Positions 17,883 through 36,234 of a DNA stretch of 64,000 nucleotides are shown here, one piece after another. Positions within the stretch are counted from its first letter, which is position 1. Every line of letters begins with the position of its first letter. The DNA comes from Pseudomonadota bacterium (GTDB lineage: Bacteria > Pseudomonadota > Gammaproteobacteria > Burkholderiales > UBA9220). The stretch spans positions 8,218-72,217 of the forward strand of contig JAJZVC010000009.1 of the NCBI GenBank assembly GCA_021845865.1, given 5' to 3'. The translations under genes and the position numbers were made by a program. Below the pieces are notes generated by a model. It made no database searches. It worked only from the letters and a program-made list of their open reading frames with translations, and was not told the origin of the DNA.

Positions 17883-18698
17883 ATGGACCCTAAAGCCTAC
17901 GGGCATTTGACCGTTGCGGAATCGAAGCAGGACTGGCTCTCTCGCGCCCTCGAGGATATTGAGGTGCTGGGTTATACCGTCTTGCCTGGATTGCTGGACG
18001 AGGCGGAACTGGAAACGGCGCGGGAACGGGTGGATGCCCTGTATGTCCGCCAGGAAAAGGCCTACGGCGCCGAGCGCCTGGCGGCCATCGGTGATTCCTG
18101 GACCGCCCGGGCGCCCTTGCTGTACGACGATTACTTTCTGCGTTTTGCCACCCATCCCTCCGTGCTGCAACTGGTGACGGCACTCCTCGGCGAGTATTTC
18201 ATCCTCAATCTGCAGAATGCCATCCTCAATAATTCCCAAGGGCATCCCCAAACCGCCTGGCATCGGGACCTTCCCTACCAGGAATGGGTGCCGAGCCGAC
18301 CGGTGGCGATAAACGTTCTCTATGCCCTGGATGATTTCACTGCCGCCAGCGGCGGTACCTTGCTGCTGCCTTTTAGCCACCGGCTGGAAAACCTGCCGAG
18401 CTGGGATTTCTTCGAGCGCCACCAGCTGGTGGCGGAGGCCCCGGCGGGCTCTGCCCTGGTGTTCAACTCCTGGCTGGTGCACCGGGCCGGCGATAACGTT
18501 TCCGGCCGGCCGCGGCGGGCCATGAACCACCTTTACACCAGCCCCATCATCAAGCAGCAGTATGATTTCCCCAAGGCCTTGAAGGGCAAGTGGTCCGACG
18601 ATCCGCGGCTTGCTCGTCTCCTCGGCTACGATTCACGGGTGGCGGACGACGACGTGGCCTGGCGCGACCGCCGCAGCGCACGCCTCACGGGGGAATGA
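17883..18698 (+). CDS. PhyH-family Fe(II)/2-oxoglutarate dioxygenase
   Basis: ORF 17865-18698 trimmed to ATG 17883, preceded by AAGGAG (17869-17874). Facial-triad candidates are WHRDLP (HxD) and LVHRAGDN. Confidence 0.7.
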   Translation: MDPKAYGHLTVAESKQDWLSRALEDIEVLGYTVLPGLLDEAELETARERVDALYVRQEKAYGAERLAAIGDSWTARAPLLYDDYFLRFATHPSVLQLVTALLGEYFILNLQNAILNNSQGHPQTAWHRDLPYQEWVPSRPVAINVLYALDDFTAASGGTLLLPFSHRLENLPSWDFFERHQLVAEAPAGSALVFNSWLVHRAGDNVSGRPRRAMNHLYTSPIIKQQYDFPKALKGKWSDDPRLARLLGYDSRVADDDVAWRDRRSARLTGE

Positions 18699-18705
18699 AG
18701 CGGTT

Positions 18706-19605
18706 ATGGGTTGGAAGCGGTTGGGATGGGTATTTTGCGCTTCGGGGGAGCGGCCCTGGATGGTGTCCCATGGCGCCAATCCCCTGGCGGTTCCTGGCGT
18801 AGGAGATATCCGCCGCATCCTGTTCAACTGCCGGGACAGGGAGGGGCGTTCCCACGTCGCCTGGCTGGATATTTCCCTTTCCGATCCTACCTGTGTCCTG
18901 GCCTTGGCAGAGCGTTCTTTACTGTCCCCCGGGGGGCTTGGGGAATTCGATGATGCGGGGGTGTCGGTGGGCAGCCTGGTGTCACTCGACGGAGACTGGC
19001 ATCTGTACTATCTGGGTTGGAACCTAGGGGTGTCGGTGCCATTCCACAACAGCATCGGCCTAGCCCAAGGAAACCCGATATCGGGCTTTGCACGCCATGG
19101 CCGGGCTCCAGTGCTGGACCGCAGCGAACTGGACCCCTTGACCCTGTCCTATCCGTGGGTGGTGAGGAACGGTGATGAATGGCGCATGTGGTATGGTTCC
19201 ACTACCGCTTGGAGGGAGGGTGGAGCCATGACCCATGTCCTTCACCAGGCAAGTTCCGGTGACGGTATCCACTGGCAGCCCCATGAGGGCATTGTGCTGC
19301 CGCTAAATGAAGGGGAAGACGCCCACTCCCGTCCCTGTGTCATGCAGGAGGAAGAAGGCTGGCGTATGTGGTTCGCCTGCAAGACTGGGAAAGGTTATCG
19401 TATCGGATACGCCGAGTCTGAAGACGGTGTGGCTTGGCGACGTCTGGACGACGTGGGGGGGCTGTTGCCTTCAGGCGTAGGCTGGGATAGCGATGAGGTT
19501 TGTTATCCCAGCGTTTTCGAGCACGGTGGGCGGCGCTATTTGCTTTATTGCGGCAACGGTTACGGCCGGACAGGTTTTGGCCTGGCGGTGTGGGAGGCAG
19601 GATGA
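18706..19605 (+). CDS. Hypothetical protein, probable beta-propeller (GH43/32/130-like fold)
   Basis: ORF 18610-19605 trimmed to ATG 18706 (MGWKRLGW), 7 nt after the upstream stop. Recurrent blade-like motifs are DWHLYYLGW, EWRMWYGS, GWRMWFAC and RRYLLYCGN. The fold call is tentative. Confidence 0.5.
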   Translation: MGWKRLGWVFCASGERPWMVSHGANPLAVPGVGDIRRILFNCRDREGRSHVAWLDISLSDPTCVLALAERSLLSPGGLGEFDDAGVSVGSLVSLDGDWHLYYLGWNLGVSVPFHNSIGLAQGNPISGFARHGRAPVLDRSELDPLTLSYPWVVRNGDEWRMWYGSTTAWREGGAMTHVLHQASSGDGIHWQPHEGIVLPLNEGEDAHSRPCVMQEEEGWRMWFACKTGKGYRIGYAESEDGVAWRRLDDVGGLLPSGVGWDSDEVCYPSVFEHGGRRYLLYCGNGYGRTGFGLAVWEAG

Positions 19606-20744
19606 CGGACAAGAAAAATATCCCTTTCGGCAAGCCTTTCATCGCCGGCAAGGAGCTGTACTACATTGCCCAGGCCGTGATGGAAGGGCATTTGTCCGGT
19701 GACGGTCCCTTTTCCGCCCGCTGCGAAAACTGGCTGGAACGCCATATCGGCGCGCCCAAAGCCCTATTGACGCCTTCCGGGACGGATGCCCTGGAATTGG
19801 CGGCGCTGCTGCTGGATATCGGGCCGGGGGACGAAGTCATCATGCCGTCCTTTACCTTCGTTTCCACGGCAACGGCCTTTGTGCTGCGGGGAGCAGTGCC
19901 GGTGTTCGTGGACATCCGGGAGGATACCCTCAACCTGGACGAGCGTCTGGTGGAAGCCGCCGTCACGCCCCGTACCCGTGCCATCGTGGCGGTTCATTAC
20001 GGCGGCTGCGGCTGCGAAATGGACGCCCTGCGGGCGATCGCGGACCGGCATGGGCTGGCGCTGGTCGAGGATGCCGCCCATGCCCTCGGCGCCAGCTACC
20101 GGGACAAGCCCCTGGGCGGTTTCGGCGACCTGGCCTGTTTCAGTTTCCACGAAACCAAGAATGTGATTTCCGGCGAGGGGGGCGCCTTGGTGGTCAATCG
20201 TCCCGAGCTGGTGGAACGAGCCGCCGTCATCCGTCAGAAGGGCACCAACCGTCAGCAGTTCCTCGCTGGGCAGACCGACAAATACACCTGGGTGGATATC
20301 GGCTCATCGTTCGTTGCCAGCGAAATCGTTGCGGCTTTCCTTTGGGGACAGTTGGAGCGGGTGGAAGAAATTACCGCCAAACGGATGAATATTTGGCGGC
20401 AGTATCACTCGGCGTTGGCTCCCTTGGCAAAGCGAGGCGAGGTTTCCCTGCCGGAACCGCCGGCCCATTGCCATGTCAATGGGCATATTTTCTATCTGCT
20501 GGTACGGGACGAGAACGCGCGGAACTCCTTGTTGAGGCAGCTTAATGGGCAGGGAGTCAATGCGGTGTTCCATTACGTGCCCCTCCACTCCTCGCCGGCC
20601 GGCTTGCGTTATGGGCGGAGCCACGGAAATTTGGCGGTGACGGAATCCGTGGCCCAGCGGCTGTTGCGCTTGCCGTTATTTTTCGACATGGAAAGCGATG
20701 ACGTGGAGAGGGTAGTGGCGGCCGTCTCGGCGTGTCATGCCTAG
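19602..20744 (+). CDS. WecE/DegT-family PLP-dependent sugar aminotransferase
   Basis: ORF 19500-20744 trimmed to ATG 19602 (ATGA overlap). Contains MTDKKNIPFGKPFIAGKELYYIAQAV, GDEVIMPSFTFVSTA and SFHETKNVISGEGGA. Confidence 0.85.
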   Translation: MTDKKNIPFGKPFIAGKELYYIAQAVMEGHLSGDGPFSARCENWLERHIGAPKALLTPSGTDALELAALLLDIGPGDEVIMPSFTFVSTATAFVLRGAVPVFVDIREDTLNLDERLVEAAVTPRTRAIVAVHYGGCGCEMDALRAIADRHGLALVEDAAHALGASYRDKPLGGFGDLACFSFHETKNVISGEGGALVVNRPELVERAAVIRQKGTNRQQFLAGQTDKYTWVDIGSSFVASEIVAAFLWGQLERVEEITAKRMNIWRQYHSALAPLAKRGEVSLPEPPAHCHVNGHIFYLLVRDENARNSLLRQLNGQGVNAVFHYVPLHSSPAGLRYGRSHGNLAVTESVAQRLLRLPLFFDMESDDVERVVAAVSACHA

Positions 20745-23129: not shown

Positions 23130-25599
<2,470 letters not shown>

Positions 25600-25601
25600 A
25601 G

Positions 25602-26759
25602 ATGATTCCTTACGGTCGGCAAGACATCTCGGATCGTGATATTCAGGCCGTTGTCGATATCCTGAAATCAGACTGGCTTACCCAGGGGCCGGCGGTGGAG
25701 CGATTCGAAACAGCGGTTTCCCACTATTGCGGCGCCCCTTATGCCGTTGCTGTCAGCAGCGCCACGGCGGCGCTGCATCTGGCCTGTCTGGCAGCCGGTC
25801 TGGGACCGGGGGATATCCTGTGGACGTCTCCCAACAGCTTTGTCGCTTCCGCCAACTGCGCGCTCTATTGCGGCGCCAGTGTGGATTTCGTCGACATTGA
25901 GCCAGCCACCGGCAACCTGAGCGTGGCCAAGCTGGAAGAAAAACTGGTTGAAGCACAGCAACAAAACAGTCTGCCCAAGGTGGTGGTGCCAGTGCATTTT
26001 GCTGGCCAACCCTGTGACATAGCGCCCATTGCAGAACTGGCGCGGTGCTATGGCTTCGTGGTCATTGAAGACGCCTCCCACGCCATTGGCGCCAGTTACC
26101 AGGGTGGCAAGATTGGCAACTGTGCCCATGCCGATTTCACGGTGTTTAGTTTTCATCCCGTCAAGATCGTCACCACCGGGGAAGGCGGCATGGTGCTGAC
26201 CCGGTCGGCGGAACATTACCAGCGGCTGTTGCGCCTGCGCTCTCATGGCATCACCCGTGACCCCGTCGAAATGGTCGGCCCCAGCGAGGGGCCCTGGTAT
26301 TACCAGCAGGTCGAACTGGGGTTCAATTACCGCATCACCGACATCCAGTGCGCCCTCGGCGCAAGCCAGATGGCACGCTTGGATGACTTTGTCGCCCGAC
26401 GAGCGGCGCTGGCCGAACGCTATCGCCAGAAACTTTCCGGCTTACCGCTGCGTGTTCTGGAACGGCGAGCGGACAGGACGTCTGCTTGGCACCTGTTCGT
26501 GGTTTGCCTCAAGCTGGATGAACTGACTGTTACGCGCCGCGAAGTCTTCGAACGGCTGCGCAATGCCGGCATCGGCGTCAACGTCCATTACATCCCCATT
26601 CACACCCAGCCCTATTACCAGCGACTGGGCTTCCATCACGGCGACTTTCTGGCAGCGGAACAGTATTACCGCGAGGCGCTGACCCTGCCGCTGTATCCAG
26701 GACTGAGTGAGGTGGAGCAGGACAAGGTTGTCTCATTACTTGCGGAAGCGTTGCAATGA
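25602..26759 (+). CDS. pseC: UDP-4-amino-4,6-dideoxy-N-acetyl-beta-L-altrosamine transaminase, PseC
   Basis: 385-aa ORF with MIPYGRQDISDRDIQAVVDILKSDWLTQGPAVERFE and the PLP-Lys region SFHPVKIVTTGEGGM. Confidence 0.9.
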   Translation: MIPYGRQDISDRDIQAVVDILKSDWLTQGPAVERFETAVSHYCGAPYAVAVSSATAALHLACLAAGLGPGDILWTSPNSFVASANCALYCGASVDFVDIEPATGNLSVAKLEEKLVEAQQQNSLPKVVVPVHFAGQPCDIAPIAELARCYGFVVIEDASHAIGASYQGGKIGNCAHADFTVFSFHPVKIVTTGEGGMVLTRSAEHYQRLLRLRSHGITRDPVEMVGPSEGPWYYQQVELGFNYRITDIQCALGASQMARLDDFVARRAALAERYRQKLSGLPLRVLERRADRTSAWHLFVVCLKLDELTVTRREVFERLRNAGIGVNVHYIPIHTQPYYQRLGFHHGDFLAAEQYYREALTLPLYPGLSEVEQDKVVSLLAEALQ

Positions 26760-27457
26760 ATGTTGCCATCATTCCCGCCCGTGGCGGCAGCAAGCGCATT
26801 CCCCGCAAGAACATCAAATCCTTCCTGGGTAAGCCGATGATTGCCTATTCCATCGAGACAGCGCTGGCGAGCGGCCTGTTCGACAGGGTGCTGGTGTCAA
26901 CCGACGACGAGGAAATTGCTTCAGTGGCCCAGGCACACGGCGCGGAAACCCCTTTTTTGCGTCCCAAAGAACTGGCCGACGAACACACCGGCACCAATGC
27001 CGTGGCAGGCCATGCCCTAGCCTGGTTACGCGAGAGCGGAAAAGAATATGCCCATGCCTGCTGTATCTACGCCACGGCGCCGTTCATGACCGTGGCGGAT
27101 TTGCAGGAAGCACACCGCCTGTTGCAGGAAAGCGGCAAGTCCTTTGTCTTTCCGGTCACCACGTTTCCTTTTCCCGTTCAGCGGGCCGTGCGGCTCACCG
27201 CGCAGGGGGAGGTGGAGGCGATATACCCGGAATATGCGTCCACCCGTTCCCAGGACCTGGAGGAAGCCTACCATGACGTGGGGCAATTCTACTGGGGACG
27301 GACCGAGGCGTTCCTTTGCGGCAAGGCTCTGCTCACTCACGATTCCCTGGGGTTGGTGATTCCCCGCCATCGTGCCCAGGATATCGATACCGCTGAAGAT
27401 TGGGAGCGGGCGGAACTGATGTATGAAGTGCTGCAGGCTAGGGAAAATCGCCCATGA
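26756..27457 (+). CDS. pseF: Pseudaminic acid cytidylyltransferase, PseF
   Basis: 233-aa ORF with the AIIPARGGSKRIPRKNIK motif and 4-nt overlaps on both sides. Confidence 0.85.
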   Translation: MNVAIIPARGGSKRIPRKNIKSFLGKPMIAYSIETALASGLFDRVLVSTDDEEIASVAQAHGAETPFLRPKELADEHTGTNAVAGHALAWLRESGKEYAHACCIYATAPFMTVADLQEAHRLLQESGKSFVFPVTTFPFPVQRAVRLTAQGEVEAIYPEYASTRSQDLEEAYHDVGQFYWGRTEAFLCGKALLTHDSLGLVIPRHRAQDIDTAEDWERAELMYEVLQARENRP

Positions 27458-28500
27458 AGGTGGTGGTGCGTGCGGATGCTTCTGTCGAGCTGGGGGGCGG
27501 GCACGTCATGCGCTGTCTGGCCCTTGCGGAGCGCCTCCGTGAAGGCGGTGGCGAGGTAGGGTTCCTCTGCCGCGATTTGCCCGGCAACTTGAACAGCGTG
27601 GTCGCCGGGCAGGGTTTTACCGTTTTTCCCCTTCCACCAGGGGAACGCGATGCGGAATTCAGCTGGGAAGCGGACGTTCGGCATAGCCTCGCTGCACTCG
27701 AATCCTGGGGCGAGTTGGATTGGCTCATCGTGGACCACTACAGTCTGGATATCCGCTGGGAGACGGCCATGCGTAGTCGTGTGAGAGGTATCCTGGCGAT
27801 CGACGATCTGGCCGACCGTCCCCATGGCTGTGATTTGCTCCTGGACCAGAATTATCATGTCGCCGCGGAACAGCGCTATCGTGGTCTGGTGCCGCAGTCC
27901 TGTCGCGTCATGTTGGGGCCGGACTATGCCTTGCTGCGGCCGGAGTTCGAGAGCATGCGCAAGAAAATGCGCAGCAGAAGTGGTACGGTTGCTCGCCTGC
28001 TGATTTTTTTTGGCACCACGGACCCTGGCGATGAAACCAGCAAGGCCCTGGCGGCCTTGGCGCTTTTGCCCCTGGAAAAACTCCGGGTGGACGTGGTGGT
28101 GGGAATGACCAACCCTCATGGGGAGCAGGTTCGCAAGCAGTGTGCCGCCATGTCCAACGTGTACTTCCATCGCCAGCCTGAAAATCTTGTGGCATTGATG
28201 GCGGGGGCTGATCTGGCCTTGGGGGCCGGCGGGAGCATTCATTGGGAGCGCTGCGTCCTCGGCTTGCCGGCACTGGTTGTTGCGGTGGCCGCTAATCAGA
28301 TCGCCATCTCGGAAGCCTTGGCGCGGAAAGGGGCTATCGTTTATCTCGGCACGGCAGAGCAAGTCACGGTGGCGCTGATAGCGGAAAGGCTTTTGCAGGC
28401 CATGGCAGAACCAGAAGCCCTGAGAAGCATGTCGGCCATGGCATCCACCTTGACGGATGGTGGTGGTGCACGGCGTGTAGCAGGTATGATGCGTCTATGA
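27454..28500 (+). CDS. pseG: UDP-2,4-diacetamido-2,4,6-trideoxy-beta-L-altropyranose hydrolase, PseG
   Basis: 348-aa ORF with the N-terminus MKVVVRADASVELGGGHVMRCLALAERL. There is no fused GNAT domain. Confidence 0.85.
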   Translation: MKVVVRADASVELGGGHVMRCLALAERLREGGGEVGFLCRDLPGNLNSVVAGQGFTVFPLPPGERDAEFSWEADVRHSLAALESWGELDWLIVDHYSLDIRWETAMRSRVRGILAIDDLADRPHGCDLLLDQNYHVAAEQRYRGLVPQSCRVMLGPDYALLRPEFESMRKKMRSRSGTVARLLIFFGTTDPGDETSKALAALALLPLEKLRVDVVVGMTNPHGEQVRKQCAAMSNVYFHRQPENLVALMAGADLALGAGGSIHWERCVLGLPALVVAVAANQIAISEALARKGAIVYLGTAEQVTVALIAERLLQAMAEPEALRSMSAMASTLTDGGGARRVAGMMRL

Positions 28501-29147
28501 GAATTTCCATCCTTTGTTCCGATGACAAGCACCCCGTGTATCCTTGGTTGGAGGGCTGGCTGAAGCGTCAGGCTGCGCATCAAGTCGAACTGGTGCAGCA
28601 GAAAGATCGGCTGAGTGGTGGTGAGATTCTTATTCTTGTCTCTTGCCATGACTTCATTGATCGCGAAACCCGAGCAAAATATGGTGTGACACTCGTTATT
28701 CATGCCAGTGACCTTCCCCGGGGCCGTGGTTGGTCTCCTCACATATGGCAGGTTCTCGAGGGAAAAAACAAGATAGTCGTGACCCTTTTGGAGGCCGATG
28801 ACAATATCGATAGCGGTGCTATCTGGACTCAGAAGCTGATTAGTCTCGAAGGGCACGAACTGGTGGATGAAATCAATGCCGCCTTGTTTGATGCCGAAGT
28901 GGCCCTGATGGATTTTGCCGTGGAAAATTACGGCAAGATCACGCCTCGTTCTCAAGACGGGAGAGAGGCCACTTATTACCCACGGCGTATCCCGCAGGAC
29001 AGCCGTATCGACCCCTACCGCGATTTGGCTAGCCAGTTTGACCTTTTGAGAGTGGCTGACCCGTGCCGCTACCCGGCTTTCTTTGACCTGCGTGGCAAAC
29101 GGTATGCAATCAGAATTGAAAAAATCGGAGATGCGGAAAGCTCATGA
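28497..29147 (+). CDS. Formyltransferase-fold protein occupying the pseH position
   Basis: 216-aa ORF with VIHASDLPRGRGWSP (compare HxSLLPxxRG) and EADDNIDSGAI. ATGA-type 4-nt overlaps link it to pseG and pseI. The gene is AT-richer than its neighbours. Confidence 0.7.
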   Translation: MRISILCSDDKHPVYPWLEGWLKRQAAHQVELVQQKDRLSGGEILILVSCHDFIDRETRAKYGVTLVIHASDLPRGRGWSPHIWQVLEGKNKIVVTLLEADDNIDSGAIWTQKLISLEGHELVDEINAALFDAEVALMDFAVENYGKITPRSQDGREATYYPRRIPQDSRIDPYRDLASQFDLLRVADPCRYPAFFDLRGKRYAIRIEKIGDAESS

Positions 29148-30196
29148 CGTCCCACATTACCATCGGCGCGTATCCGGTTAGTGGCCATCACCCACCTCTG
29201 GTCGTGGCTGAAATGTCCGGCAACCACAACCAGTCGCTGGAGCGGGCCTTGGCCATTGTCGAAGCGGCAGCAAAGGCAGGTGCGCATGCTCTAAAAATCC
29301 AGACCTATACGGCGGATACCATGACCCTCAATCTGCCGGGAGAGGACTTTGCCATCGCCGACCCCGACAGTCTGTGGACAGGGAAAAACCTCTATCAACT
29401 CTACCAAGAGGCTCACACACCCTGGGAGTGGCACCAGCCCATCTTTGACCGTTGCCGGGAGCTGGACATGGTGGCATTCAGCACCCCCTTTGACGAAACC
29501 GCCGTGGACTTTCTTGAAAGCCTCAACGTACCGGCCTACAAGATCGCGTCCTTTGAGAACACCGACCTGCCGCTGATCCGCAAGGTGGCGGCTACCGGAA
29601 AGCCACTTATCATATCCACAGGCATGGCCACGGTGGCCGAATTGGACGAAACGGTGCGGGCTGCGCGGGAGGCGGGCTGTCGCGACCTGATATTGCTCAA
29701 ATGCACCAGCACCTATCCGGCGACACCGGAGAACAGCAATATCGCCACCATTCCCCATATGCGCGAACTGTTCGGCTGCGAGGTGGGCCTCTCCGACCAC
29801 ACGCCGGGTATCGGTGCGGCCGTGGCGAGCGTGGCGTTGGGGGCGTGCCTGATCGAGAAACACTTTACCCTGTGTCGGGCGGAGGGTGGCGTAGATGCGG
29901 CCTTTTCCCTCGAACCGGAAGAATTGGCGGCTCTGGTAACGGAGAGCGAACGGGCTTGGCTGGCGCTTGGCGAGGTGCGTTATGGCCCTGGCGAGGCAGA
30001 GCGCAAGTCGATGGTATTCCGCCGTTCGCTGTATGTTACCCGTGACGTGGCGGCGGGAGAGGTCTTCACGGCGGAAAACGTGCGCGCCATACGTCCGGGT
30101 TTCGGCTTGCCGCCCAAATATATCGAGGTTGTCCTTGGCAAGACTGCACGCTGTGCGGTCAAAGCAGGGACACCCCTGTCATGGGATATTTTATGA
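29144..30196 (+). CDS. pseI: Pseudaminic acid synthase, PseI
   Basis: 350-aa ORF with PLVVAEMSGNHNQSLERALAIVEAAAKAGAHALKIQTY and a C-terminal SAF-like VTRDVAAGEVFTAENVRAIRPG. Confidence 0.9.
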   Translation: MTSHITIGAYPVSGHHPPLVVAEMSGNHNQSLERALAIVEAAAKAGAHALKIQTYTADTMTLNLPGEDFAIADPDSLWTGKNLYQLYQEAHTPWEWHQPIFDRCRELDMVAFSTPFDETAVDFLESLNVPAYKIASFENTDLPLIRKVAATGKPLIISTGMATVAELDETVRAAREAGCRDLILLKCTSTYPATPENSNIATIPHMRELFGCEVGLSDHTPGIGAAVASVALGACLIEKHFTLCRAEGGVDAAFSLEPEELAALVTESERAWLALGEVRYGPGEAERKSMVFRRSLYVTRDVAAGEVFTAENVRAIRPGFGLPPKYIEVVLGKTARCAVKAGTPLSWDIL

Positions 30197-30205
30197 GGAG
30201 GCAGG

Positions 30206-31474
30206 ATGGCTGATGTCGACCAGTTGATTCAGTGGAAGACCAACGCCTGGAAGGATTCCAATATGGTGGCCTGGTACTCCGGTCGCATGGTCGAATCCAG
30301 TGGCACTAATCCACTGAAGAATGCCGTGGAAGTGGGGCTGTGCGGAAAGTACGCGACAGGACCGCGCATCCTCGACGTCGGCATCGGCACCGGGCGTGGG
30401 TCGCTGCCCCTGGCGCGCCAGGGACGGGAAGTGGTCGGCATCGACAGCTCCCAGGCCATGCTGGACGAAACCCGCCGCCTGGCGGGGGATACCCCGATCA
30501 CCTTGCAGCAGGGGGATGTGGAAAGGCTGTCCTTTCCGGAGGCGTCGTTCGATACGCTGCTGTCCCTGAACGTGGTGGTGCATTTCCCCCATTGGCGCAG
30601 GCTCCTGGCCGAATGGAAGCGGGTGGTGCGGCCCGGCGGCAGGATCGTTTTCGATGTGCATTCCCTGGACAACTACCGTTGCGCCTATGGCGAGGGCGTG
30701 ACGGAACAGGGATTGCTGCAGCAGGTGGAGCAGAGCGGCGACTTTTCCACCTACGTCCTACGCGTGGCCGCCGAGGACATGGTTGCCGAGGCGGACAGGC
30801 TCGGTCTCCGGGTGGCGGCGCTGGTCCCCTACGGGGCCTTTCTCGGCGGTGGCAACGTCAATTATCTGATGGAAGGCCTGGAACGGCAGTGGGGTTGGAA
30901 ACGGTTGTTGTCCTGGATGGCCCTGGACGAGCGCTTCCATGCTTTCGGCCTGTATCTCGAACAGGAGCTGGTGGCAAAACTGAGCACACGGGTTACCGGC
31001 CGCTACATGGTGGTGCTCGACAACGTCGCCGACCCGGAAGCCAACCGGGCCTGGCTGGCGCGCAATGCGGAAATGAATCGTCTGATGCGGTCGAGCGACT
31101 CCCTCGCGGAGCTGTTCGATTTCATTGGTTTGCGCGGCCAGGAATTTCGCGGGGCGCTCAACCATCACGTGGGCGCTAGTTTGCGCAACTTCACCTTCTT
31201 TTATGCGCTTTATCGGGAAATGATGGAGAAGGGGTGGGGGGAGTTGCCGGAGGGTATTTTGGAACAACAGCACAAGGCCCGGGTTCTTGCTTGGCGCAAA
31301 AACGAACGCGCCGACGACGAGGCGCTGCGCATGGCCCGGACATGGTATGCCCAGCCTGAAATGAAGCAGGCGACGGAGAATCGCGGTATTTCGATGGGCG
31401 AGGCGATGGAGTATTTCCTGGTGGAGCGGCTTCTTACCGACTATTTGGGCATGTTCACGGGGGAGCGCGTATGA
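30206..31474 (+). CDS. Class I SAM-dependent methyltransferase with an unassigned ~220-aa C-terminal extension
   Basis: 422-aa ORF with ILDVGIGTGRGSL, VVGIDSSQAMLD and FDTLLSLNVVVHF. I recognise no motif in the C-terminal half. Confidence 0.7.
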   Translation: MADVDQLIQWKTNAWKDSNMVAWYSGRMVESSGTNPLKNAVEVGLCGKYATGPRILDVGIGTGRGSLPLARQGREVVGIDSSQAMLDETRRLAGDTPITLQQGDVERLSFPEASFDTLLSLNVVVHFPHWRRLLAEWKRVVRPGGRIVFDVHSLDNYRCAYGEGVTEQGLLQQVEQSGDFSTYVLRVAAEDMVAEADRLGLRVAALVPYGAFLGGGNVNYLMEGLERQWGWKRLLSWMALDERFHAFGLYLEQELVAKLSTRVTGRYMVVLDNVADPEANRAWLARNAEMNRLMRSSDSLAELFDFIGLRGQEFRGALNHHVGASLRNFTFFYALYREMMEKGWGELPEGILEQQHKARVLAWRKNERADDEALRMARTWYAQPEMKQATENRGISMGEAMEYFLVERLLTDYLGMFTGERV

Positions 31475-34400
31475 GCGGTCATGCCATCGTTTCCTGCCTA
31501 TGGCAAAAGAATATCGGCGTCTTGGAGTCCTACGCCAAGCGGCACCCCGGCGTATCGATCATTATCCCGTCCACCTTCATTGGCAAGTCCGATGAGGAGA
31601 GGCTGCTGGCCGCGGGCGGCAAGGTCGTCTACCTGGAGAAGCTGTTGCCGGCTTCGGAAATGGATGCGGTCAAGAACTTGGCCAACGGTATCCTGGCGCG
31701 CACTGGGGAAATGCTGGCCAGCACGTCCTGGCGGTCTTACTGCGTCAGCCAGGGTTGGGACGGAGAGCGATTCGCGCCGATTCTGGCCGCACGCGCCAAT
31801 GCGGAGGCCCTCAGCTTCGTCGTTCTGCTGGAGGCGCTGGAACAGGCCAAGAAACAGTATGAAATCGCCCTGGCGGTGGTCAACGAAGACCTGATGCCGG
31901 TGGGCCGGGTGGTGGCGAATTGGGCGAGGAACAACGGCATCCCCAGCCTGGTGGTTTCCCACAGCCTGATCCTTTTCCGCCCCTACACCGTGCACGACAC
32001 CCTCCACGCCGACGTGATGGCGCTTTTCGGCGAGCGGGGAGCGGAGGGCTACCTCGACCTCGGCGTTGAGGCCAAAAGGTTGCGTGTTGTCGGCAACCCG
32101 GCCTGGGACAGGTATTTCGCGCTGAAAAGGGAGCGCTCGGCCATCCGGCGGGAAGTGGCGGGGCGCTTGGGCCTGGATGCGGCCCGCCCGATCGTGCTGT
32201 TCGGCACCACTTGGGCGGCCAATCTGTCGGCCTTCGGCGATGAAAGAATCTACAGCAAGACCCTGGCGGCCTTTTTCCGCGGCTGCGCCCTATTGCGGGA
32301 CCAAGGGATGGCTGTTCAGCCGGTGATCAAGGACCGCATGCAGAACGCCGCGTTCAGCCATGATTTGATTCCTTCCGTGGCGGCCGAATCCGGGTTCCGC
32401 CCAGGGGAATACGCCTATACCGCCGAGGGCGTGGAGTCCCTGATCGTGGCGGCGGACGTGGTGGTGTCGGTGGAATCCAACATGTCGGTAGAGGCCATGA
32501 TGGCGGGGGTGCCCGCCATCAACATGGTGACGGAATTCGGCATGCGCCTGGGGCCGTGCTTCGATGCGGATGCGGGCATCGTCGAAAGCGAGCCGGACGA
32601 ATTGGCGATGTGGCTGCGGCGGACGCTGACCGACGATGCCTTCCGATCGGGGCTGCTGGCCGCGATGGAGGCCAAGGCGCCCTATTACAACATGGGGGTC
32701 GACGGCAATGCGACTTTGCGCATGGTGGCGCTGATGGAAGAACTCGCTCTGCCGGTCAAGGGCAACGACAGGAAAAAATACATCTGGCAGACTCTGCTCA
32801 ACGTCAGCGAATCGGACACCAACCAATACCACAACTGGTGCCGCAGCGACCTGGTCGAGATGTTCCGCCACCCGCCCAGGCTGGTGCTGGATATCGGCTG
32901 CGGCGCCGGGGCCACGGGAGAATACATCAAGAAGCGCTATCCCGCCGCTCGGGTGGTGGGCATCGAGGTCAACGCCGGCGCGGCGAGGGTGGCGGCTACC
33001 CGCATCGACCAGGTGCTCCAGGGTAAATTCGAGGATTTCGACCTGGAGGCCGAGGGCATCCGCAAGGGGAGCATCGATACCGTCATCGTCGCCGACGTCC
33101 TGGAGCACATGTACGATCCCTGGGGGGTAATGGCCGGCATCGCGCCCTATCTCACTCCCGACGCGCAGGTGGTGGCGAGCATTCCCAACACTCGCAACCT
33201 GGTGCTGATGAGCGAATTGGCGGATGGAGGCTGGACCTACGATTCCTGGGGCCTGCTGGACATTACCCACATCCGCTTTTTCACCTTGCGCGAAATCCGA
33301 CGCTTTTTCCACGAAACCGGCTACCGCATCGCCCGCCTGCATTACAACATGGACAGCCGCCTCGGCGAGTTCTACCAGCGCAATAAGGACAAGGCCCAGG
33401 TGGACGTGGACATGGGAAAACTCACCATCAAGGGGGTGAGCCGCGACGATTTGGCGGAACTATGCACCTGGCAATTCTATGTCCTGGCCGAGCCGGGAGC
33501 CGTCGCTGACGAAGCGTTTCAGGCGGAGGAAGCCAGGCGTGCTGGCGATGAGGAAAAGAAAAGCGCCTACGAGAGGTGGCAGGAATACCGACAGTTCGAC
33601 GAGGCCACGGCGGCCATCGTCAATCAACGCATAGAACGGTGGGAAACGCTACCGCGCATTCATCTCGCCCTGTTGGCGTCGCCTGTCGATGTGGAGCGCA
33701 TCGGGGACACCCTGCGCTCCCTGGCCGTCCAAAATTACCAGAACCTGGCGGTCACGGTGGTCTCCCCTGCGGCGGCCCCCTCGGCTTGGAAGGACACGGA
33801 GAAGCTCTCTTGGCTGCGCAGCCCGGGGGACAACCTGCTTCATGGGGTGAACCAAGCCCTGCTGGCCTCGCCCGCGGACTGGGTGGGGATCGTGGATGCC
33901 GGCGACAGGCTGGCCGACGCCGCCCTCGTGTTCCTGATGGAGGGGGCGGTCGAGAACCCGGCATGGCAGTTAATATACAGCGACGAGGATGTGCTCCAGG
34001 CTGACGGCGAATACGGCCTGCCTCATTTCAAACCCGACTTCAACCTCGATATGCTGCGCAGCTTCCCCTACGTGGGGGGGCTGCTGCTGGCCCGGCAAAG
34101 GCTGTTCAGTGATTTGAGCGGGTTCCGGCCAGGCTGTCTGGGGGTCGAGGAGTACGATCTTGCATTCCGGGCCTATGAAGCGGGGGGCGAGGCGATCATG
34201 GGTCATTGTCCGGGGGTGTTGTACCACCGGCGTGCCGATGGGGGGCACTGCCGCAAGCCGGCGCTGGAACTGGTCGAAAGCGGGCGTCAGGTAGTCGCCG
34301 AGCACCTGCGGCGCCAGGGGATTGCCGCCGAAGTGGAAAAGGGGCTGTTTCCCGGCAGCTATCGGGTCCGCTACCGTCACGAGGGCGCGCCCCTCGTGTC

Positions 34401-36234
34401 CATTCTGGCCGCGGTCCGCGACCAGGTGGACAAGGTGCAGCGCCTGGTTGAAACGCTCCTGGCCAACACCCGCTATCCCAATTTCGAGCTGGTGCTGCTC
34501 AATAGTGCCAGCACCTCGGACGCGGCCCGCGCCTTCCTCGCCGGTATCCAGGCCCTCGGCGATTCGCGGTTGAGGGTGCTCGACCACCCGGTGAAGGAGC
34601 CGCTTCCTGCATTGCACAACATACTGGCTGGACAGGCACGGGGCGACTACCTGTTGTTCATGTATTTCGATAGCGCCGCCTTGCAGCCTGACTGGCTGGA
34701 CAGCCTCATGGAGCATGGCCGCCGGCCCGACGTGGGGGCGGTGGGCCCGAAGCTGCTGAATGCGGACGGCACGGTGCGGCAAACCGGCATCATCCTGGGC
34801 CTCGACGGCAGCGCCGGCACCGTCTTTTCGGGTCATCCCCTGGATTATCCCGGCTATTTCGGCCGCGCCCATATGGAACAGGATTTCTCCGCCCTCGGCG
34901 GCGGTTGCCTGCTGACGTCCAAGGCGCTGTTCGATGCCGTGGGCGGCTTCGACGGCGCGGCTTTGCCCCAACGCTTCGCCGAAGTGGATTACTGTCTCCG
35001 CTTGCGGGAAAAAGGCTACCGCCTGGTATGGACGCCCCACGTGAGCCTTCTCAACGATGGTCTTGCCGCGGCGATGAAGTGGGTCGAGTCGGAGGCGGGC
35101 GAGGACGAGGGCGAGGAGGAGGCCTTCCTACGCCGCCATCTCAAGGCGCTGGCCCTTGACCCGGCCTATAATCCCAATCTCAGCCTGGCCGGCGAAGCCA
35201 GTTTCAAAATCGAAACCCGCAAGCCCCTGGTTTGGAATCCCTTGCCCTGGCGGCCCCTTCCCCGCGTGCTGGCCCAGCCCGGAGACAGTGCCGGCTGCGG
35301 CGAATACCGTATTTTTTCCCCCATGCGCGCCTTGACCCAGGCGAAGAAAATTCAGGGGTGGGCGGATTTCCATGTTTTTTCGCCACCGGAAATGGAACGC
35401 CTGGACGTGGATGCCATCATTCTTCAACGCCAGACGCACCCGGACCAGGTGGACGCCATCGCGCGGCACAAGAAATACTCCCGCGCGTTCCGTGTTTACG
35501 AACTGGACGATTTGATCACCCACGTTCCGGTGCGGAACGCGCACAAGGACACCATGCCCAAGGATGTGGAGTTCTGGCTGCGGAAAGGGGTGGGCCTCTG
35601 CGATCGATTCGTGGTTTCCACCGTTCCGCTGGCCGAGGCCTTCAGGGGATGGAACCCGGACATACGAGTGGTGCCCAATTTCATCGAGAAGGCCCGCTGG
35701 GGTGAACTGAACCCCCAGCGCCGCCAGGGGAGGAAACCGCGAGTCGGCTGGGCGGGGGGCGTCGGACATGCCGGGGACCTGGAAATAATCACCGACGTGG
35801 TCAAGGAGTTGGCCGGGGAAGTGGAATGGGTGTTTCTCGGCATGTGTCCCGAAGGCATCCGCCAGTATGTGCAGGAGTTTTATCCCGGCGTGCCCATTCC
35901 CCTCTATCCGGCAAAATTGGCGAGCCTGAATCTGGACCTGGCTCTGGCTCCCTTGGAGCTGCATCCCTTCAACGAAGGCAAAAGCCACCTCCGTCTTCTG
36001 GAGTACGGCATTCTGGGCTATCCAGTCGTTTGCACCGACATTTACCCCTACCAGGGGGAGTATCCCGTCAAGCGGGTAAAAAATCGTCACCGTGACTGGG
36101 TGGAGGCTATTCGAGAAAGAATCAACGACTTGGATGCTTGCGCACGGGAAGGGGATGTTTTGCGCGAGCACGTGCGTTCCAGATGGATGCTGGAGGATAA
36201 TTTGGATTGGTGGATGCGGGGCTGGCTACCGTAA
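31471..36234 (+). CDS. 1587-aa multidomain enzyme: GT-B-like N-domain, class I methyltransferase, two GT2 domains, C-terminal GT-B (GT1/4-like) domain
   Basis: Uninterrupted 4764-nt ORF, ATGA-coupled to the upstream gene. Motifs include ADVVVSVESNMSVEAMMAGVPAINM, LVLDIGCGAGATG (nt 32881), PRIHLALLASP...IVDAGDRL...SDEDVL, LVSILAAVRDQ...FELVLLNSAS...GAVGPKLLNADGTVRQTG...AEVDYCLRLREKGYRLVWTPH, and RVGWAGGVGHAGDLEII...LLEYGILGYPVVCTD. Confidence 0.8.
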   Translation: MSGHAIVSCLWQKNIGVLESYAKRHPGVSIIIPSTFIGKSDEERLLAAGGKVVYLEKLLPASEMDAVKNLANGILARTGEMLASTSWRSYCVSQGWDGERFAPILAARANAEALSFVVLLEALEQAKKQYEIALAVVNEDLMPVGRVVANWARNNGIPSLVVSHSLILFRPYTVHDTLHADVMALFGERGAEGYLDLGVEAKRLRVVGNPAWDRYFALKRERSAIRREVAGRLGLDAARPIVLFGTTWAANLSAFGDERIYSKTLAAFFRGCALLRDQGMAVQPVIKDRMQNAAFSHDLIPSVAAESGFRPGEYAYTAEGVESLIVAADVVVSVESNMSVEAMMAGVPAINMVTEFGMRLGPCFDADAGIVESEPDELAMWLRRTLTDDAFRSGLLAAMEAKAPYYNMGVDGNATLRMVALMEELALPVKGNDRKKYIWQTLLNVSESDTNQYHNWCRSDLVEMFRHPPRLVLDIGCGAGATGEYIKKRYPAARVVGIEVNAGAARVAATRIDQVLQGKFEDFDLEAEGIRKGSIDTVIVADVLEHMYDPWGVMAGIAPYLTPDAQVVASIPNTRNLVLMSELADGGWTYDSWGLLDITHIRFFTLREIRRFFHETGYRIARLHYNMDSRLGEFYQRNKDKAQVDVDMGKLTIKGVSRDDLAELCTWQFYVLAEPGAVADEAFQAEEARRAGDEEKKSAYERWQEYRQFDEATAAIVNQRIERWETLPRIHLALLASPVDVERIGDTLRSLAVQNYQNLAVTVVSPAAAPSAWKDTEKLSWLRSPGDNLLHGVNQALLASPADWVGIVDAGDRLADAALVFLMEGAVENPAWQLIYSDEDVLQADGEYGLPHFKPDFNLDMLRSFPYVGGLLLARQRLFSDLSGFRPGCLGVEEYDLAFRAYEAGGEAIMGHCPGVLYHRRADGGHCRKPALELVESGRQVVAEHLRRQGIAAEVEKGLFPGSYRVRYRHEGAPLVSILAAVRDQVDKVQRLVETLLANTRYPNFELVLLNSASTSDAARAFLAGIQALGDSRLRVLDHPVKEPLPALHNILAGQARGDYLLFMYFDSAALQPDWLDSLMEHGRRPDVGAVGPKLLNADGTVRQTGIILGLDGSAGTVFSGHPLDYPGYFGRAHMEQDFSALGGGCLLTSKALFDAVGGFDGAALPQRFAEVDYCLRLREKGYRLVWTPHVSLLNDGLAAAMKWVESEAGEDEGEEEAFLRRHLKALALDPAYNPNLSLAGEASFKIETRKPLVWNPLPWRPLPRVLAQPGDSAGCGEYRIFSPMRALTQAKKIQGWADFHVFSPPEMERLDVDAIILQRQTHPDQVDAIARHKKYSRAFRVYELDDLITHVPVRNAHKDTMPKDVEFWLRKGVGLCDRFVVSTVPLAEAFRGWNPDIRVVPNFIEKARWGELNPQRRQGRKPRVGWAGGVGHAGDLEIITDVVKELAGEVEWVFLGMCPEGIRQYVQEFYPGVPIPLYPAKLASLNLDLALAPLELHPFNEGKSHLRLLEYGILGYPVVCTDIYPYQGEYPVKRVKNRHRDWVEAIRERINDLDACAREGDVLREHVRSRWMLEDNLDWWMRGWLP

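What the first reader, a model, noticed from the sequence alone, without database searches (positions are those of the whole stretch)
28497..29147. pseH is missing; its slot in the pse operon holds a formyltransferase-fold gene lacking the catalytic Asn
Seen:
- The gene order is pseB-pseC-pseF-pseG-X-pseI, with 4-nt overlaps on both sides of X.
- No GNAT-type ORF occurs anywhere in the window.
- X (216 aa) has the formyltransferase hallmark VIHASDLPRGRGWSP and a downstream EADDNIDSGAI Asp motif.
- The residue two positions before the His is Val. Fmt, GART, ArnA and sugar N-formyltransferases carry the catalytic Asn there (Asn-His-Asp triad).
- X is AT-richer than its neighbours. For example, the 60-nt line starting at 28621 has 25 G+C.

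Known: PseH acetylates the 4-amino group of UDP-4-amino-4,6-dideoxy-beta-L-AltNAc, which becomes N7 of Pse. 7-N-formyl pseudaminic acid derivatives have been reported from O-antigens (P. aeruginosa O7, from memory).

Inference: X may make a 7-N-formyl Pse, giving a non-canonical Pse. Alternatively it may use another acyl donor, or be non-catalytic with one of the two LbH acetyltransferases (3465-4157, 16210-16872) substituting for PseH.
Basis: partly seen in the sequence, partly recalled or inferred. Interest (0 to 1): 0.65.

Follow-up and report, generated by a model that had tools for sequence, protein, structure and literature searches.

The report
Formyltransferase-like enzyme replacing PseH
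In this flagellin-glycosylation operon the usual acetyltransferase of pseudaminic-acid synthesis (PseH) is replaced by a widespread, uncharacterised formyltransferase-fold protein. It most likely formylates the sugar's 4-amino group instead of acetylating it, a known kind of swap carried out here by a different protein lineage.

Summary
The window encodes pseB-pseC-pseF-pseG-X-pseI, with ATGA overlaps on both sides of X. No GNAT gene occurs anywhere in the 64 kb. X (216 aa) is a well-folding formyltransferase-fold protein.

X belongs to a large family (over 3,000 sequences) in which His69, Ser71 and Asp105 are invariant. The "catalytic Asn" slot is Val/Ile/Leu in 133 of 134 aligned members and never Asn.

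The 10-formyl-THF dehydrogenase hydrolase domain also has Ile at that slot, and X keeps the His-Ser-Asp triad.

Comparative evidence places X at the PseH step:
- PseG-X-PseI adjacency is conserved across many phyla.
- X is often fused to PseG.
- X and PseH-type GNAT domains are anticorrelated (Fisher p = 0.009).
- In PseG-GNAT-X fusions the GNAT part is mostly decayed.

X most likely transfers formyl from N10-formyl-THF to UDP-4-amino-4,6-dideoxy-beta-L-AltNAc, giving Pse5Ac7Fo on flagellin. That would make it a functional analogue of PseJ but not an orthologue (E = 0.013). The acyl group is inferred, not shown.

Verdict: a new variant of a known kind, of moderate interest.

The parts
24607..25599 (+). 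pseB, UDP-GlcNAc 4,6-dehydratase (inverting)
   Evidence: TIGR03589 at 559 bits against a cutoff of 408; Polysacc_synt_2.
25602..26759 (+). pseC, aminotransferase that makes UDP-4-amino-4,6-dideoxy-beta-L-AltNAc, the proposed substrate of X
   Evidence: TIGR03588 at 549 bits against a cutoff of 424.
26756..27457 (+). pseF, CMP-pseudaminic acid synthetase
   Evidence: TIGR03584 at 334 bits against a cutoff of 206.
27454..28500 (+). pseG, UDP-sugar hydrolase; 348 aa with no C-terminal GNAT tail
   Evidence: TIGR03590 at 301 bits against a cutoff of 154. By contrast, about 500-aa PseG-GNAT fusions are the common form in related operons.
28497..29147 (+). X, a 216-aa formyltransferase-fold protein in the PseH slot; proposed UDP-4-amino-4,6-dideoxy-beta-L-AltNAc N-formyltransferase
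   Evidence: PF00551 at 37 bits against a cutoff of 26. AF2 pLDDT 95.7. Foldseek matches to 1ZGH, ArnA, HypX and FDH. PseG-X-PseI synteny in nearly all of the 63 related genome loci.
28692..28739 (+). Active-site motif LVIHASDLPRGRGWSP: Val67 (28695-28697) in the Asn slot, His69 (28701-28703), Ser71
   Evidence: Across 134 family members, His is present in 133, Ser in 131, and slot 67 is V125/I5/L3. Sequence read.
28791..28823 (+). EADDNIDSGAI loop carrying the catalytic Asp105 (28809-28811)
   Evidence: Asp105 and Gly107 are present in 134 of 134 members.
28971..29090 (+). C-terminal sub-domain motif TYYPRRIPQDS...LLRVADPCRYPAFF; Arg164 aligns with ArnA Arg201
   Evidence: Alignment to the E. 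coli and Salmonella ArnA formyltransferase domain. R164, S169, R185 and P193 are near-invariant.
29144..30196 (+). pseI, pseudaminic acid synthase
   Evidence: TIGR03586 at 507 bits against a cutoff of 340.
30206..31474 (+). SAM-dependent methyltransferase directly downstream of pseI; possible glycan or flagellin methylase
   Evidence: Methyltransf_11/25. A homologue (42% identity) lies downstream of the same operon in L017 and directly after pseI in L119.
23130..24599 (+). TPR protein with a partial GT9-like match, 8 nt upstream of pseB; candidate flagellin glycosyltransferase (FlmG-like architecture)
   Evidence: TPR repeats plus a partial Glyco_transf_9 match. The FlmG concept comes from PMC7591256.
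36359..37879 (+). Flagellin, the probable acceptor of the Pse derivative; followed by flaG, fliD and fliS
   Evidence: Flagellin_N and Flagellin_C; FlaG, FliD and FliS follow.

Best explanation
X is the enzyme of the third step of CMP-pseudaminic acid synthesis in this operon, the step normally done by the GNAT acetyltransferase PseH. It binds the PseC product, UDP-4-amino-4,6-dideoxy-beta-L-AltNAc, and N-acylates the 4-amino group. Because X has a folate-dependent formyltransferase fold, the most likely donor is N10-formyl-tetrahydrofolate. His69, Ser71 and Asp105 would form the catalytic set, as in FDH, Fmt and ArnA, with a hydrophobic Val at the position where most transformylases have Asn. 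PseG, PseI and PseF then convert the 4-formamido sugar to CMP-Pse5Ac7Fo, which the island's glycosyltransferases put on flagellin.

Shown:
- gene order and translational coupling;
- absence of a GNAT in the window;
- the fold;
- family-wide conservation of His, Ser and Asp, with Val in the Asn slot;
- conserved PseG-X-PseI synteny and PseG-X fusions;
- anticorrelation with PseH-type GNAT domains.

Inferred: the substrate, the formyl donor and the final glycan.
For: Slot and coupling. X lies between pseG and pseI with ATGA overlaps on both sides.

No alternative in the window. There is no GNAT, PIG-L deacetylase or second formyltransferase anywhere in the 64 kb.

Synteny. Of 63 genome loci with an X homologue, nearly all have PseG-X-PseI. 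About 19 have exactly pseB-C-F-G-X-I and nothing else. They come from Alpha-, Beta-, Gamma- and Deltaproteobacteria, Verrucomicrobia, Dissulfurispiraceae, Cyanobacteria and Myxococcota.

Fusions. Of the 150 best 50%-identity cluster representatives, 71 are free-standing X. 74 are fusions with PseG N-terminal to X, either direct or through a 90-180-aa middle region.

Anticorrelation with PseH. In a PseI-centred metagenome sample of 58 loci, 39 have a strong PseH-type GNAT and no X. 5 have X and no strong GNAT, 1 has both, and 13 have neither (Fisher p = 0.009). The GNATs are PseH-like: TIGR03585 is their best NCBIfam hit, reaching 119 bits for a free-standing one.

Decay of the GNAT when X is fused. 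Only about 4 of 37 middle regions keep the acetyl-CoA loop (R/Q-x-x-G-x-G/A). Many are truncated to 90-120 aa. The triple fusions L117 and L146 give no TIGR03585 hit.

Catalytic residues. H69 is present in 133/134, S71 in 131/134 and D105 in 134/134 members.

Fold and relatives. The AF2 model has pLDDT 95.7. Its nearest structures are 1ZGH, the ArnA formyltransferase domain (a UDP-beta-L-4-amino-sugar N-formyltransferase), the HypX N-domain, Rv3404c, Fmt and the FDH hydrolase domain. X Arg164 aligns with ArnA Arg201 in a shared RRxPxDS motif.

Precedents:
- PseJ replaces PseH and gives Pse5Ac7Fo (PMC11040635).
- In vitro, PseF accepts Pse5Ac7Fo as well as Pse5Ac7Ac, with kcat/Km 4.85 against 4.71.
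- Formyltransferase genes sit inside legionaminic-acid clusters of organisms with N-formyl nonulosonic acids: Halorubrum and Kuenenia.
Against: - No experiment or ligand-bound structure exists for this family. Its closest solved relative, 1ZGH, is an unpublished structural-genomics entry.
- The Asn that all characterised sugar N-formyltransferases use is absent. The Asn-less precedent cited here (FDH) passes formyl to a thiol; HypX, another close structural neighbour, does the same, though its residue at that slot was not checked. Neither acts on an amine.
- A few loci or proteins carry both an apparently intact PseH-type GNAT and X (L052, L117, P0182, P0210). X is therefore not always a simple replacement.
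- Rare fusions of X to a PDH-E1-alpha-like domain (P0127) or to DUF218 (P0149) hint at other chemistry.
- The window is a metagenome contig (128 kb), so a pseH elsewhere in the genome cannot be excluded.
Confidence: 0.55

Rival explanations
1. X does the PseH-step N-acylation but with a donor other than N10-formyl-THF, such as an acetyl, hydroxyacyl or thioester-borne acyl group. The product would then be Pse5Ac7Ac or another 7-N-acyl Pse made by a formyltransferase fold.
For: - The Asn that hydrogen-bonds the formyl oxygen is replaced by Val in 125 of 134 members, and never by a polar residue.
- Very similar PseI proteins (61-76% identity) work with either GNAT-type or X-type operons. This would be easiest if the products were alike.
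- One X is fused to a thiamine-dependent E1-alpha-like domain (P0127), and split transketolase-like genes lie near the Bradyrhizobium cluster.
Against: - Every characterised member of this fold uses a formyl-folate donor (established knowledge; PMC6802093).
- X keeps the strand and loop that correspond by position to the folate-binding region, and the HxSxLPxxRG signature.
- FDH shows that formyl-THF chemistry works with Ile in the Asn slot.
- The E1-alpha fusion is a single representative among 150.
Confidence: 0.12
2. A canonical PseH is encoded outside the window and makes Pse5Ac7Ac. X has a different, accessory role, for example making a second formylated Pse variant in parallel or acting on another amine.
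For: - The window and its parent contig cover only part of a genome.
- X coexists with seemingly intact PseH-type GNAT domains in L052, L117, P0182 and P0210.
- In Caulobacter the PseH-like gene flmH is unlinked to other pse genes, judging by the locus tags in Table 1 of that paper, and is redundant (PMC7591256).
Against: - X and PseH-type GNAT are anticorrelated (p = 0.009).
- 48 of 57 X loci have no GNAT hit within 10 kb. The 6 weak hits that do occur include AAC(6')-like proteins in the two tested, not PseH.
- GNAT remnants decay in PseG-GNAT-X fusions.
- The window has no deacetylase that could free another amine for X.
Confidence: 0.2
3. X is a non-catalytic structural or regulatory partner of PseG, and one of the two LbH acetyltransferases in the island (3465-4157 or 16210-16872) acetylates the PseC product.
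For: - The canonical Asn is missing.
- The LbH at 3465-4157 has a PglD_N domain, as in PglD, which (from memory) N-acetylates a UDP-4-amino sugar.
Against: - His69, Ser71, Asp105 and about a dozen other active-site-region residues are invariant over 134 diverse members. That is not expected for a dead enzyme.
- An LbH homologue accompanies X in only one related locus (L038).
- Each LbH in the window lies in a separate group of sugar-modification genes outside the pse operon, and two further DegT-family aminotransferase genes lie in those outer regions (603-1958, 19500-20744).
Confidence: 0.05

Closest known systems
PseJ (Anoxybacillus kamchatkensis; PDB 6CI2/6CI4/6CI5/6EDK; Reimer et al. 2018, ACS Chem Biol 13:3161)
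   Same: A formyltransferase-fold enzyme reported to fill in the Pse5Ac7Fo pathway in place of PseH (as cited in PMC11040635). It is the proposed functional analogue of X.
   Different: It is not an orthologue. Sequence similarity is marginal (E = 0.013, 18 bits over about 52 residues). X is closer to 1ZGH, FDH, Fmt and ArnA. The X family lacks the Asn and is frequently fused to PseG.
ArnA N-terminal domain (UDP-4-amino-4-deoxy-L-arabinose N-formyltransferase; PDB 1YRW, 2BLN)
   Same: It formylates the 4-amino group of a UDP-beta-L-sugar with N10-formyl-THF. It shares the fold (Foldseek E about 1e-15, TM 0.73), the HxSLLPxxRG and DxG motifs and the RRxPxDS motif of the C-terminal sub-domain.
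   Different: From memory, ArnA has the Asn-His-Asp triad (Asn102). ArnA also has a longer N-terminal half and a full C-terminal sub-domain, and it is fused to a decarboxylase rather than to PseG. X scores 49 bits against a cutoff of 777 for the ArnA model.
[quoted passage not shown]
   Same: It is the second-best PDB sequence match (E = 6e-10). It has a hydrophobic residue (Ile) in the Asn slot and a His-Ser-Asp catalytic set (PMC6802093). It shows that formyl-THF chemistry does not need the Asn.
   Different: Its formyl acceptor is water or a phosphopantetheine thiol, not a sugar amine. It is a eukaryotic multi-domain enzyme.
1ZGH / Formyl_trans_C_2 family ('FT2'; C. thermocellum structural-genomics protein)
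   Same: It is the best PDB match by sequence and by structure. It is also Asn-less (VVFH/VAFH) and also sits in nonulosonic-acid clusters.
   Different: It is a distinct paralogue, 26-28% identical to X. It always sits next to a PIG-L deacetylase and occurs with either PseH-GNAT or X. It probably re-acylates a de-acetylated amine rather than doing the PseH step. It is uncharacterised.
PseH (TIGR03585, GNAT acetyltransferase)
   Same: It occupies the same pathway step and the same genomic neighbourhood, adjacent to or fused with PseG and upstream of PseI.
   Different: The fold (GNAT) and donor (acetyl-CoA) are unrelated. X has no GNAT similarity.

Membership tests
Formyl_trans_N superfamily (PF00551; folate-dependent transformylase fold) | Sequence match above the curated threshold, and the fold | tested here: met
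   PF00551 at 37.4 bits against a cutoff of 26.1, covering profile positions 62-177 of 181. The AF2 model (pLDDT 95.7) matches 1ZGH, ArnA, HypX, Fmt and FDH at Foldseek E 1e-13 to 1e-16.
Formyl_trans_N superfamily | Catalytic His, and Asp in the DxG loop, plus the Ser two residues after His (HxS) | tested here: met
   H69 in 133/134, S71 in 131/134 and D105 in 134/134 members. The triad description is from PMC6802093.
Formyl_trans_N superfamily / sugar N-formyltransferases | Asn two residues before the catalytic His (Asn-His-Asp triad) | tested here: not met
   Val67 in X. The slot is V125/I5/L3 in 134 members, and no invariant Asn occurs anywhere in the family. FDH also lacks it.
Sugar N-formyltransferases (ArnA, VioF, WlaRD, WbkC, Rv3404c) | Formyl transfer from N10-formyl-THF to a nucleotide-sugar amine | not testable with these tools
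   This needs an enzyme assay. Only indirect support is available: the fold, the motifs and the pathway slot.
ArnA / PRK06988 / Fmt / VioF equivalog models (NCBIfam) | Score above the curated equivalog cutoff | tested here: not met
   Best scores are 54 bits (cutoff 316), 49 (777), 46.5 (201.5) and 33.5 (238). No NCBIfam model covers this family.
PseJ (Pse-pathway formyltransferase) | Orthology to the PseJ sequence or structure | tested here: not met
   6CI2/6CI4 match at E = 0.013-0.017, 18 bits, residues 65-117 only. About 30 other PDB sequences match better.
PseJ (functional class: PseH-replacing formyltransferase) | Encoded in a pse operon that lacks pseH, at the PseH step | tested here: met
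   The window operon has no GNAT. X and PseH-GNAT are anticorrelated in related loci.
PseH (TIGR03585, GNAT) | GNAT fold with an acetyl-CoA binding loop | tested here: not met
   X has no GNAT hit in Pfam or NCBIfam.

The most novel reading that the evidence does not exclude
The Asn-less X family (and its paralogue FT2/1ZGH) may not be formyltransferases. They could be a formyltransferase-fold N-acyltransferase class that uses a different acyl donor, for example an acetyl or hydroxyacyl group delivered by a thioester or a thiamine-dependent partner. That would make 7-N-acyl pseudaminic acids by chemistry never described for this fold.
Probability: 0.12. Interest if true: 0.8.

Novelty: new variant of a known kind. 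Interest (0 to 1): 0.5.

Why it matters
Pseudaminic acids decorate flagella, capsules and O-antigens, and their N-acyl groups determine antigenicity, phage recognition and antibody or lectin binding.

If X is the 7-N-formylating enzyme, Pse5Ac7Fo would be far more common in nature than the few known examples suggest. This operon type occurs in many phyla, and the family has thousands of members now annotated as 'methionyl-tRNA formyltransferase' or 'UDP-glucuronic acid dehydrogenase'. Genome-based predictions that require pseH would miss these pathways.

Mechanistically, the family would be the first sugar N-formyltransferase clade working without the conserved Asn. The PseG-GNAT-X fusions with decaying GNAT domains also give a clear natural example of one enzyme fold displacing another at the same pathway step.

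A characterised X would also be a tool for chemoenzymatic synthesis of CMP-Pse5Ac7Fo.

Tried and rejected
Linking X to a known glycan structure failed.
- Paper searches for pse clusters with formyltransferases gave only PseJ, Geobacillus fmt genes, Halorubrum and Kuenenia. None concerns this family.
- No P. aeruginosa protein appeared among the named close homologues of a Pseudomonas X.
- A plasmid tblastn gave only weak generic formyltransferase hits.

The idea that the window might come from Ca. Accumulibacter, which makes Pse5Ac7Ac, was rejected. PlsX is 81-83% identical to Sulfuricella and Sulfurimicrobium proteins.

Sinorhizobium RkpP as a possible X homologue was rejected. The paper names a GNAT-like Rkp3_013 for that step.

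A shifted Asn was rejected, because the family has no invariant Asn.

Low GC as a sign of recent transfer into this genome was rejected as a window-specific signal. It is a family-wide trait (54 of 55 loci).

The listing of cluster members gave no organism names for the fusion proteins. The PseJ paper itself is not held. Comparing the GNAT domain of P0182 with PDB entries gave only generic GNAT hits, not PseH structures.

My first reading, that X often co-occurs with an intact GNAT plus a deacetylase, was corrected. Those 'X' genes are the paralogue FT2.
Full report
**What is in the window**

The 216-aa ORF X (28497-29147, + strand) lies in an operon whose other genes are identified by NCBIfam equivalog models well above their cutoffs. 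These are PseB (24607-25599), PseC (25602-26759), PseF (26756-27457), PseG (27454-28500) and PseI (29144-30196).

The PseG stop and the X start, and the X stop and the PseI start, overlap as ATGA.

X matches Pfam Formyl_trans_N above threshold (37 bits against 26). The match covers only profile positions 62-177, because the N-terminal half of X is compact. X reaches no NCBIfam cutoff; its best score is 54 bits against 316.

X has 52% GC and 55% GC3, against 57-61% and 68-75% for its operon partners.

**No GNAT in the window**

I scanned every substantial ORF of the 64 kb with Pfam. I also searched the six-frame translation with HMMs for PseH-type GNAT, PIG-L deacetylase and the X paralogue FT2. 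No GNAT, deacetylase or second formyltransferase exists in the window.

**Genomic setting**

The operon sits in a large flagellin-glycosylation island. The island holds several TPR-glycosyltransferase proteins, many methyltransferases, two radical-SAM/SPASM proteins, an AsnB-like amidotransferase, a carbamoyltransferase, WbqC and two LbH acetyltransferases. It also holds three DegT aminotransferases (including PseC) and a 1,587-aa methyltransferase-GT2 protein. Flagellin, flaG, fliD and fliS follow immediately.

The host is an uncultured relative of Sulfuricella and Sulfurimicrobium (PlsX 81-83% identical). The sequence comes from a JGI metagenome contig of 128 kb.

**The family**

X has 3,041 homologues in the 90%-clustered database. 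They are annotated only as 'methionyl-tRNA formyltransferase', 'formyltransferase family protein' or 'UDP-glucuronic acid dehydrogenase'. Among the 50%-identity representatives, 3,752 match at E < 1e-3 and 299 at E < 1e-30.

In an alignment of 134 diverse X domains, fusion proteins included, the following are invariant or nearly so: His69, Ser71, Leu73, Pro74, Gly76, Gly78, Pro81, Trp84, Asp105, Gly107, Arg164, Ser169, Arg185 and Pro193.

The slot two residues before the His, where Fmt, GART, ArnA and the sugar N-formyltransferases have Asn, is Val in 125 members, Ile in 5 and Leu in 3. It is never Asn, and no Asn column is invariant anywhere in the family. The missing Asn is therefore a stable family character, not a lesion, and it is not supplied from a shifted position.

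**Is an Asn-less formyltransferase fold plausible as an enzyme?**

- The second-best PDB sequence match is the hydrolase domain of 10-formyl-THF dehydrogenase (E = 6e-10). Its aligned motif reads IIYHPSLLP, with Ile in the Asn slot.
- The HypX structure paper describes His106-Ser108-Asp142 as the catalytic triad of that domain. It says the His-Ser-Asp set is conserved in FDH, Fmt and ArnA (PMC6802093). X keeps all three residues.
- The AlphaFold model is confident (pLDDT 95.7, pTM 0.90). Its closest solved structures are 1ZGH, the ArnA formyltransferase domain, the HypX N-domain, Rv3404c, Fmt, the FDH hydrolase domain, WbkC and VioF (TM 0.70-0.81).
- The C-terminal sub-domain motif of X, TYYPRRIPQDS...LLRVADPxxYPAFF, aligns with ArnA's ATCFGRRTPDDS...MVRAVADPWPGAF. 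X Arg164 falls on ArnA Arg201.
- ArnA formylates the 4-amino group of a UDP-beta-L-sugar. This is the same kind of substrate as the PseC product (the ArnA reaction is established knowledge).

**Where X acts: synteny and fusions**

A scan of one genome per species returned 63 loci with an X homologue. Nearly all show PseG-X-PseI. About 19 have exactly pseB-pseC-pseF-pseG-X-pseI with nothing else. The loci come from Alpha-, Beta-, Gamma- and Deltaproteobacteria, Verrucomicrobia, Dissulfurispiraceae, Cyanobacteria and Myxococcota.

Extra genes, where present, encode aldo-keto reductase, a cytidylyltransferase-aminotransferase fusion, HisH/HisF-like proteins, a second NeuB and similar functions. 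None of those sampled is a GNAT.

Of the 150 best representatives, 71 are free-standing X. 74 carry PseG N-terminal to X, either directly (about 540-600 aa) or through a 90-180-aa middle region (about 640-726 aa). Such fusions tie X to the step next to PseG.

**Relation to PseH**

To obtain a sample not selected for X, I fetched 80 metagenome loci through PseI. In these, the commonest arrangement is a PseG-GNAT fusion of about 500 aa directly upstream of PseI. The GNAT part has TIGR03585 (PseH) as its best NCBIfam hit. A free-standing one scores 119 bits, above the cutoff of 93.

The 58 loci that contain both PseG and PseI fall into four groups (Fisher exact p = 0.009, odds ratio 0.07):

| Strong PseH-type GNAT | X | Loci |
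|---|---|---|
| yes | no | 39 |
| no | yes | 5 |
| yes | yes | 1 |
| no | no | 13 |

In the X-centred genome set, 48 of 57 loci have no PseH-like GNAT within 10 kb. Six have only weak hits (25-39 bits); the two tested with NCBIfam are AAC(6')-like rather than PseH. One locus (L052) has a strong PseH-type GNAT.

In the PseG-middle-X fusions, the middle region is a recognisable GNAT in a few proteins (P0182, P0210, P0266; also P0211, an X-GNAT fusion without PseG). In most it is shortened to 90-120 aa or has lost the acetyl-CoA loop; about 4 of 37 keep R/Q-x-x-G-x-G/A. By contrast, the GNATs of PseG-GNAT fusions without X are almost all full-length with the loop intact.

The simplest reading is an evolutionary series: PseG-PseH, then PseG-PseH-X, then PseG-(fossil)-X, then PseG-X or PseG plus X. 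In this series X makes the GNAT dispensable.

**A paralogue that must be kept apart**

In Bradyrhizobium and several other loci, X is followed by a second formyltransferase-like gene (FT2, 230 aa, with Formyl_trans_C_2) and a PIG-L deacetylase.

FT2 is the true orthologue of PDB 1ZGH (E = 1.5e-56). It is also Asn-less, with motif VAFHAAPLP.

FT2 and PIG-L are found together in nearly every locus that has either, and they accompany either PseH-GNAT or X. They look like a separate module that removes and replaces an N-acyl group, probably the one that becomes N5 (inference). The window has neither gene.

This corrected an intermediate mis-reading in which blastp-labelled 'X' genes next to intact GNATs turned out to be FT2.

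**Most likely mechanism**

X takes the PseC product and formylates its 4-amino group with N10-formyl-THF. PseG, PseI and PseF then process the 4-formamido sugar to CMP-Pse5Ac7Fo, which is transferred to flagellin.

Downstream tolerance is plausible. In vitro, PseF handles Pse5Ac7Fo as well as Pse5Ac7Ac, with kcat/Km 4.85 against 4.71 (PMC11040635).

The concept has a precedent in PseJ, reported as the formyltransferase of the Pse5Ac7Fo pathway. Formyltransferase genes are also embedded in legionaminic-acid clusters of organisms that carry N-formyl nonulosonic acids: Halorubrum and Kuenenia.

X is not a PseJ orthologue: PseJ matches at E = 0.013 over about 52 residues, behind about 30 other PDB sequences.

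I put 0.55 on this full statement. That is roughly 0.7-0.75 that X performs the PseH-step acylation, times about 0.75 that the group is formyl.

**Rivals**

1. *Another acyl donor (0.12).* The strictly hydrophobic Asn slot, one X-E1-alpha fusion, and the fact that very similar PseI proteins serve both operon types leave room for this. No member of the fold is known to use anything but formyl-folate.
2. *A PseH elsewhere and an accessory role for X (0.2).* A contig cannot exclude this, and a few loci carry both. The anticorrelation, the compact six-gene operons and the decaying GNATs argue against it.
3. *Non-catalytic X with an LbH acetyltransferase substituting (0.05).* This is contradicted by the invariant active-site residues and by the lack of any LbH-X association (1 locus).

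**The AT-richness**

X is AT-richer than both neighbours in 54 of 55 loci (mean -5 points; GC3 is lower in 45 of 55; Wilcoxon p = 1e-10). It is a property of the family rather than evidence of recent import into this genome. I have no tested explanation for it.

**Novelty and interest**

Replacement of PseH by a formyltransferase is known (PseJ), so the kind is known. What is new is a second, phylogenetically separate and much more widespread lineage at that step, with three distinguishing features:
- an altered catalytic set (no Asn);
- frequent fusion to PseG;
- a visible trail of GNAT decay.

No curated model (NCBIfam) and no paper in the searchable library describes it. I rate it a new variant of a known kind, with interest about 0.5. 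It would be useful to glycobiologists and annotators and is directly testable, but it is not a categorical surprise.

Noticed in passing
L001:8647-10007; L051:10648-12035; L106, L115, L131, L133, L139, L144, L149: A second Asn-less formyltransferase-like family (FT2, the true 1ZGH orthologues, with Formyl_trans_C_2) is found next to a PIG-L/LmbE deacetylase in nearly every locus that has either. The pair occurs in pse operons with either PseH-GNAT or X. It looks like an N-deacetylate and re-acylate module, probably remodelling N5. It is uncharacterised.
   Followed up: partly
P0157-P0266 (PseG-middle-X fusions); L117:3358-5538; L146:1659-3902: Triple-domain PseG-GNAT-X proteins in which the GNAT is often truncated or has lost its acetyl-CoA loop. 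This looks like a fossil of the displaced PseH domain.
   Followed up: partly
55 related loci and window 28497-29147: X is AT-richer than the flanking pseG and pseI in 54 of 55 loci (about 5 GC points; GC3 is also lower). This is a persistent family trait with no explanation yet.
   Followed up: partly
P0127, P0149, P0187, P0161, P0246, P0257: Rare other fusions of the X domain: to a PDH-E1-alpha/transketolase-like domain, to DUF218, to a canonical PurN-like formyltransferase, to FT2 and to PseI. The E1-alpha fusion hints at a possible link to thiamine-dependent acyl chemistry.
   Followed up: no
window 31471-36234 (+): A 1,587-aa protein overlaps the upstream methyltransferase gene by 4 nt and lies just before flagellin. 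It has a methyltransferase domain (about residues 466-620) and a GT2 domain (about 986-1190), with large regions that match no family. It may be a flagellin-modifying multi-enzyme.
   Followed up: no
window 603-20744: A large accessory sugar-modification region lies upstream of the pse operon. It encodes two further DegT aminotransferases, a GDP-mannose-dehydratase-like SDR, WbqC and a PglD-like LbH. It also encodes a carbamoyltransferase, an AsnB-like amidotransferase, two radical-SAM/SPASM proteins, PhyH, several methyltransferases and two TPR-GT proteins. This suggests a complex, heavily modified flagellin glycan.
   Followed up: partly
window 18610-19605 (+): A 331-aa ORF between the PhyH gene and a DegT aminotransferase has no family above threshold, only faint GH130/GH32-like hits at E about 1e-3.
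   Followed up: no
window 61847-63829 (+): A TPR plus GT41 (OGT-like) protein is encoded beyond the fab genes, separate from the glycosylation island.
   Followed up: no
L004:11728-12249; L010:11699-12268; L098:9008-9583: In a few X-type operons a small GNAT sits directly after pseI. In L004 and L010 it is AAC(6')-like rather than PseH-like (L098 was not tested). Its role is unknown, and the window has no counterpart.
   Followed up: partly
L005:5452-8218; L012; L006:5974-8867: Some X-type pse operons carry extra genes between pseC and pseG. These are HisH/HisF-like genes plus an unassigned 444-aa ORF (possibly acetamidino formation), or an aldo-keto reductase plus a cytidylyltransferase-aminotransferase fusion. 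They point to further Pse derivatisation.
   Followed up: no
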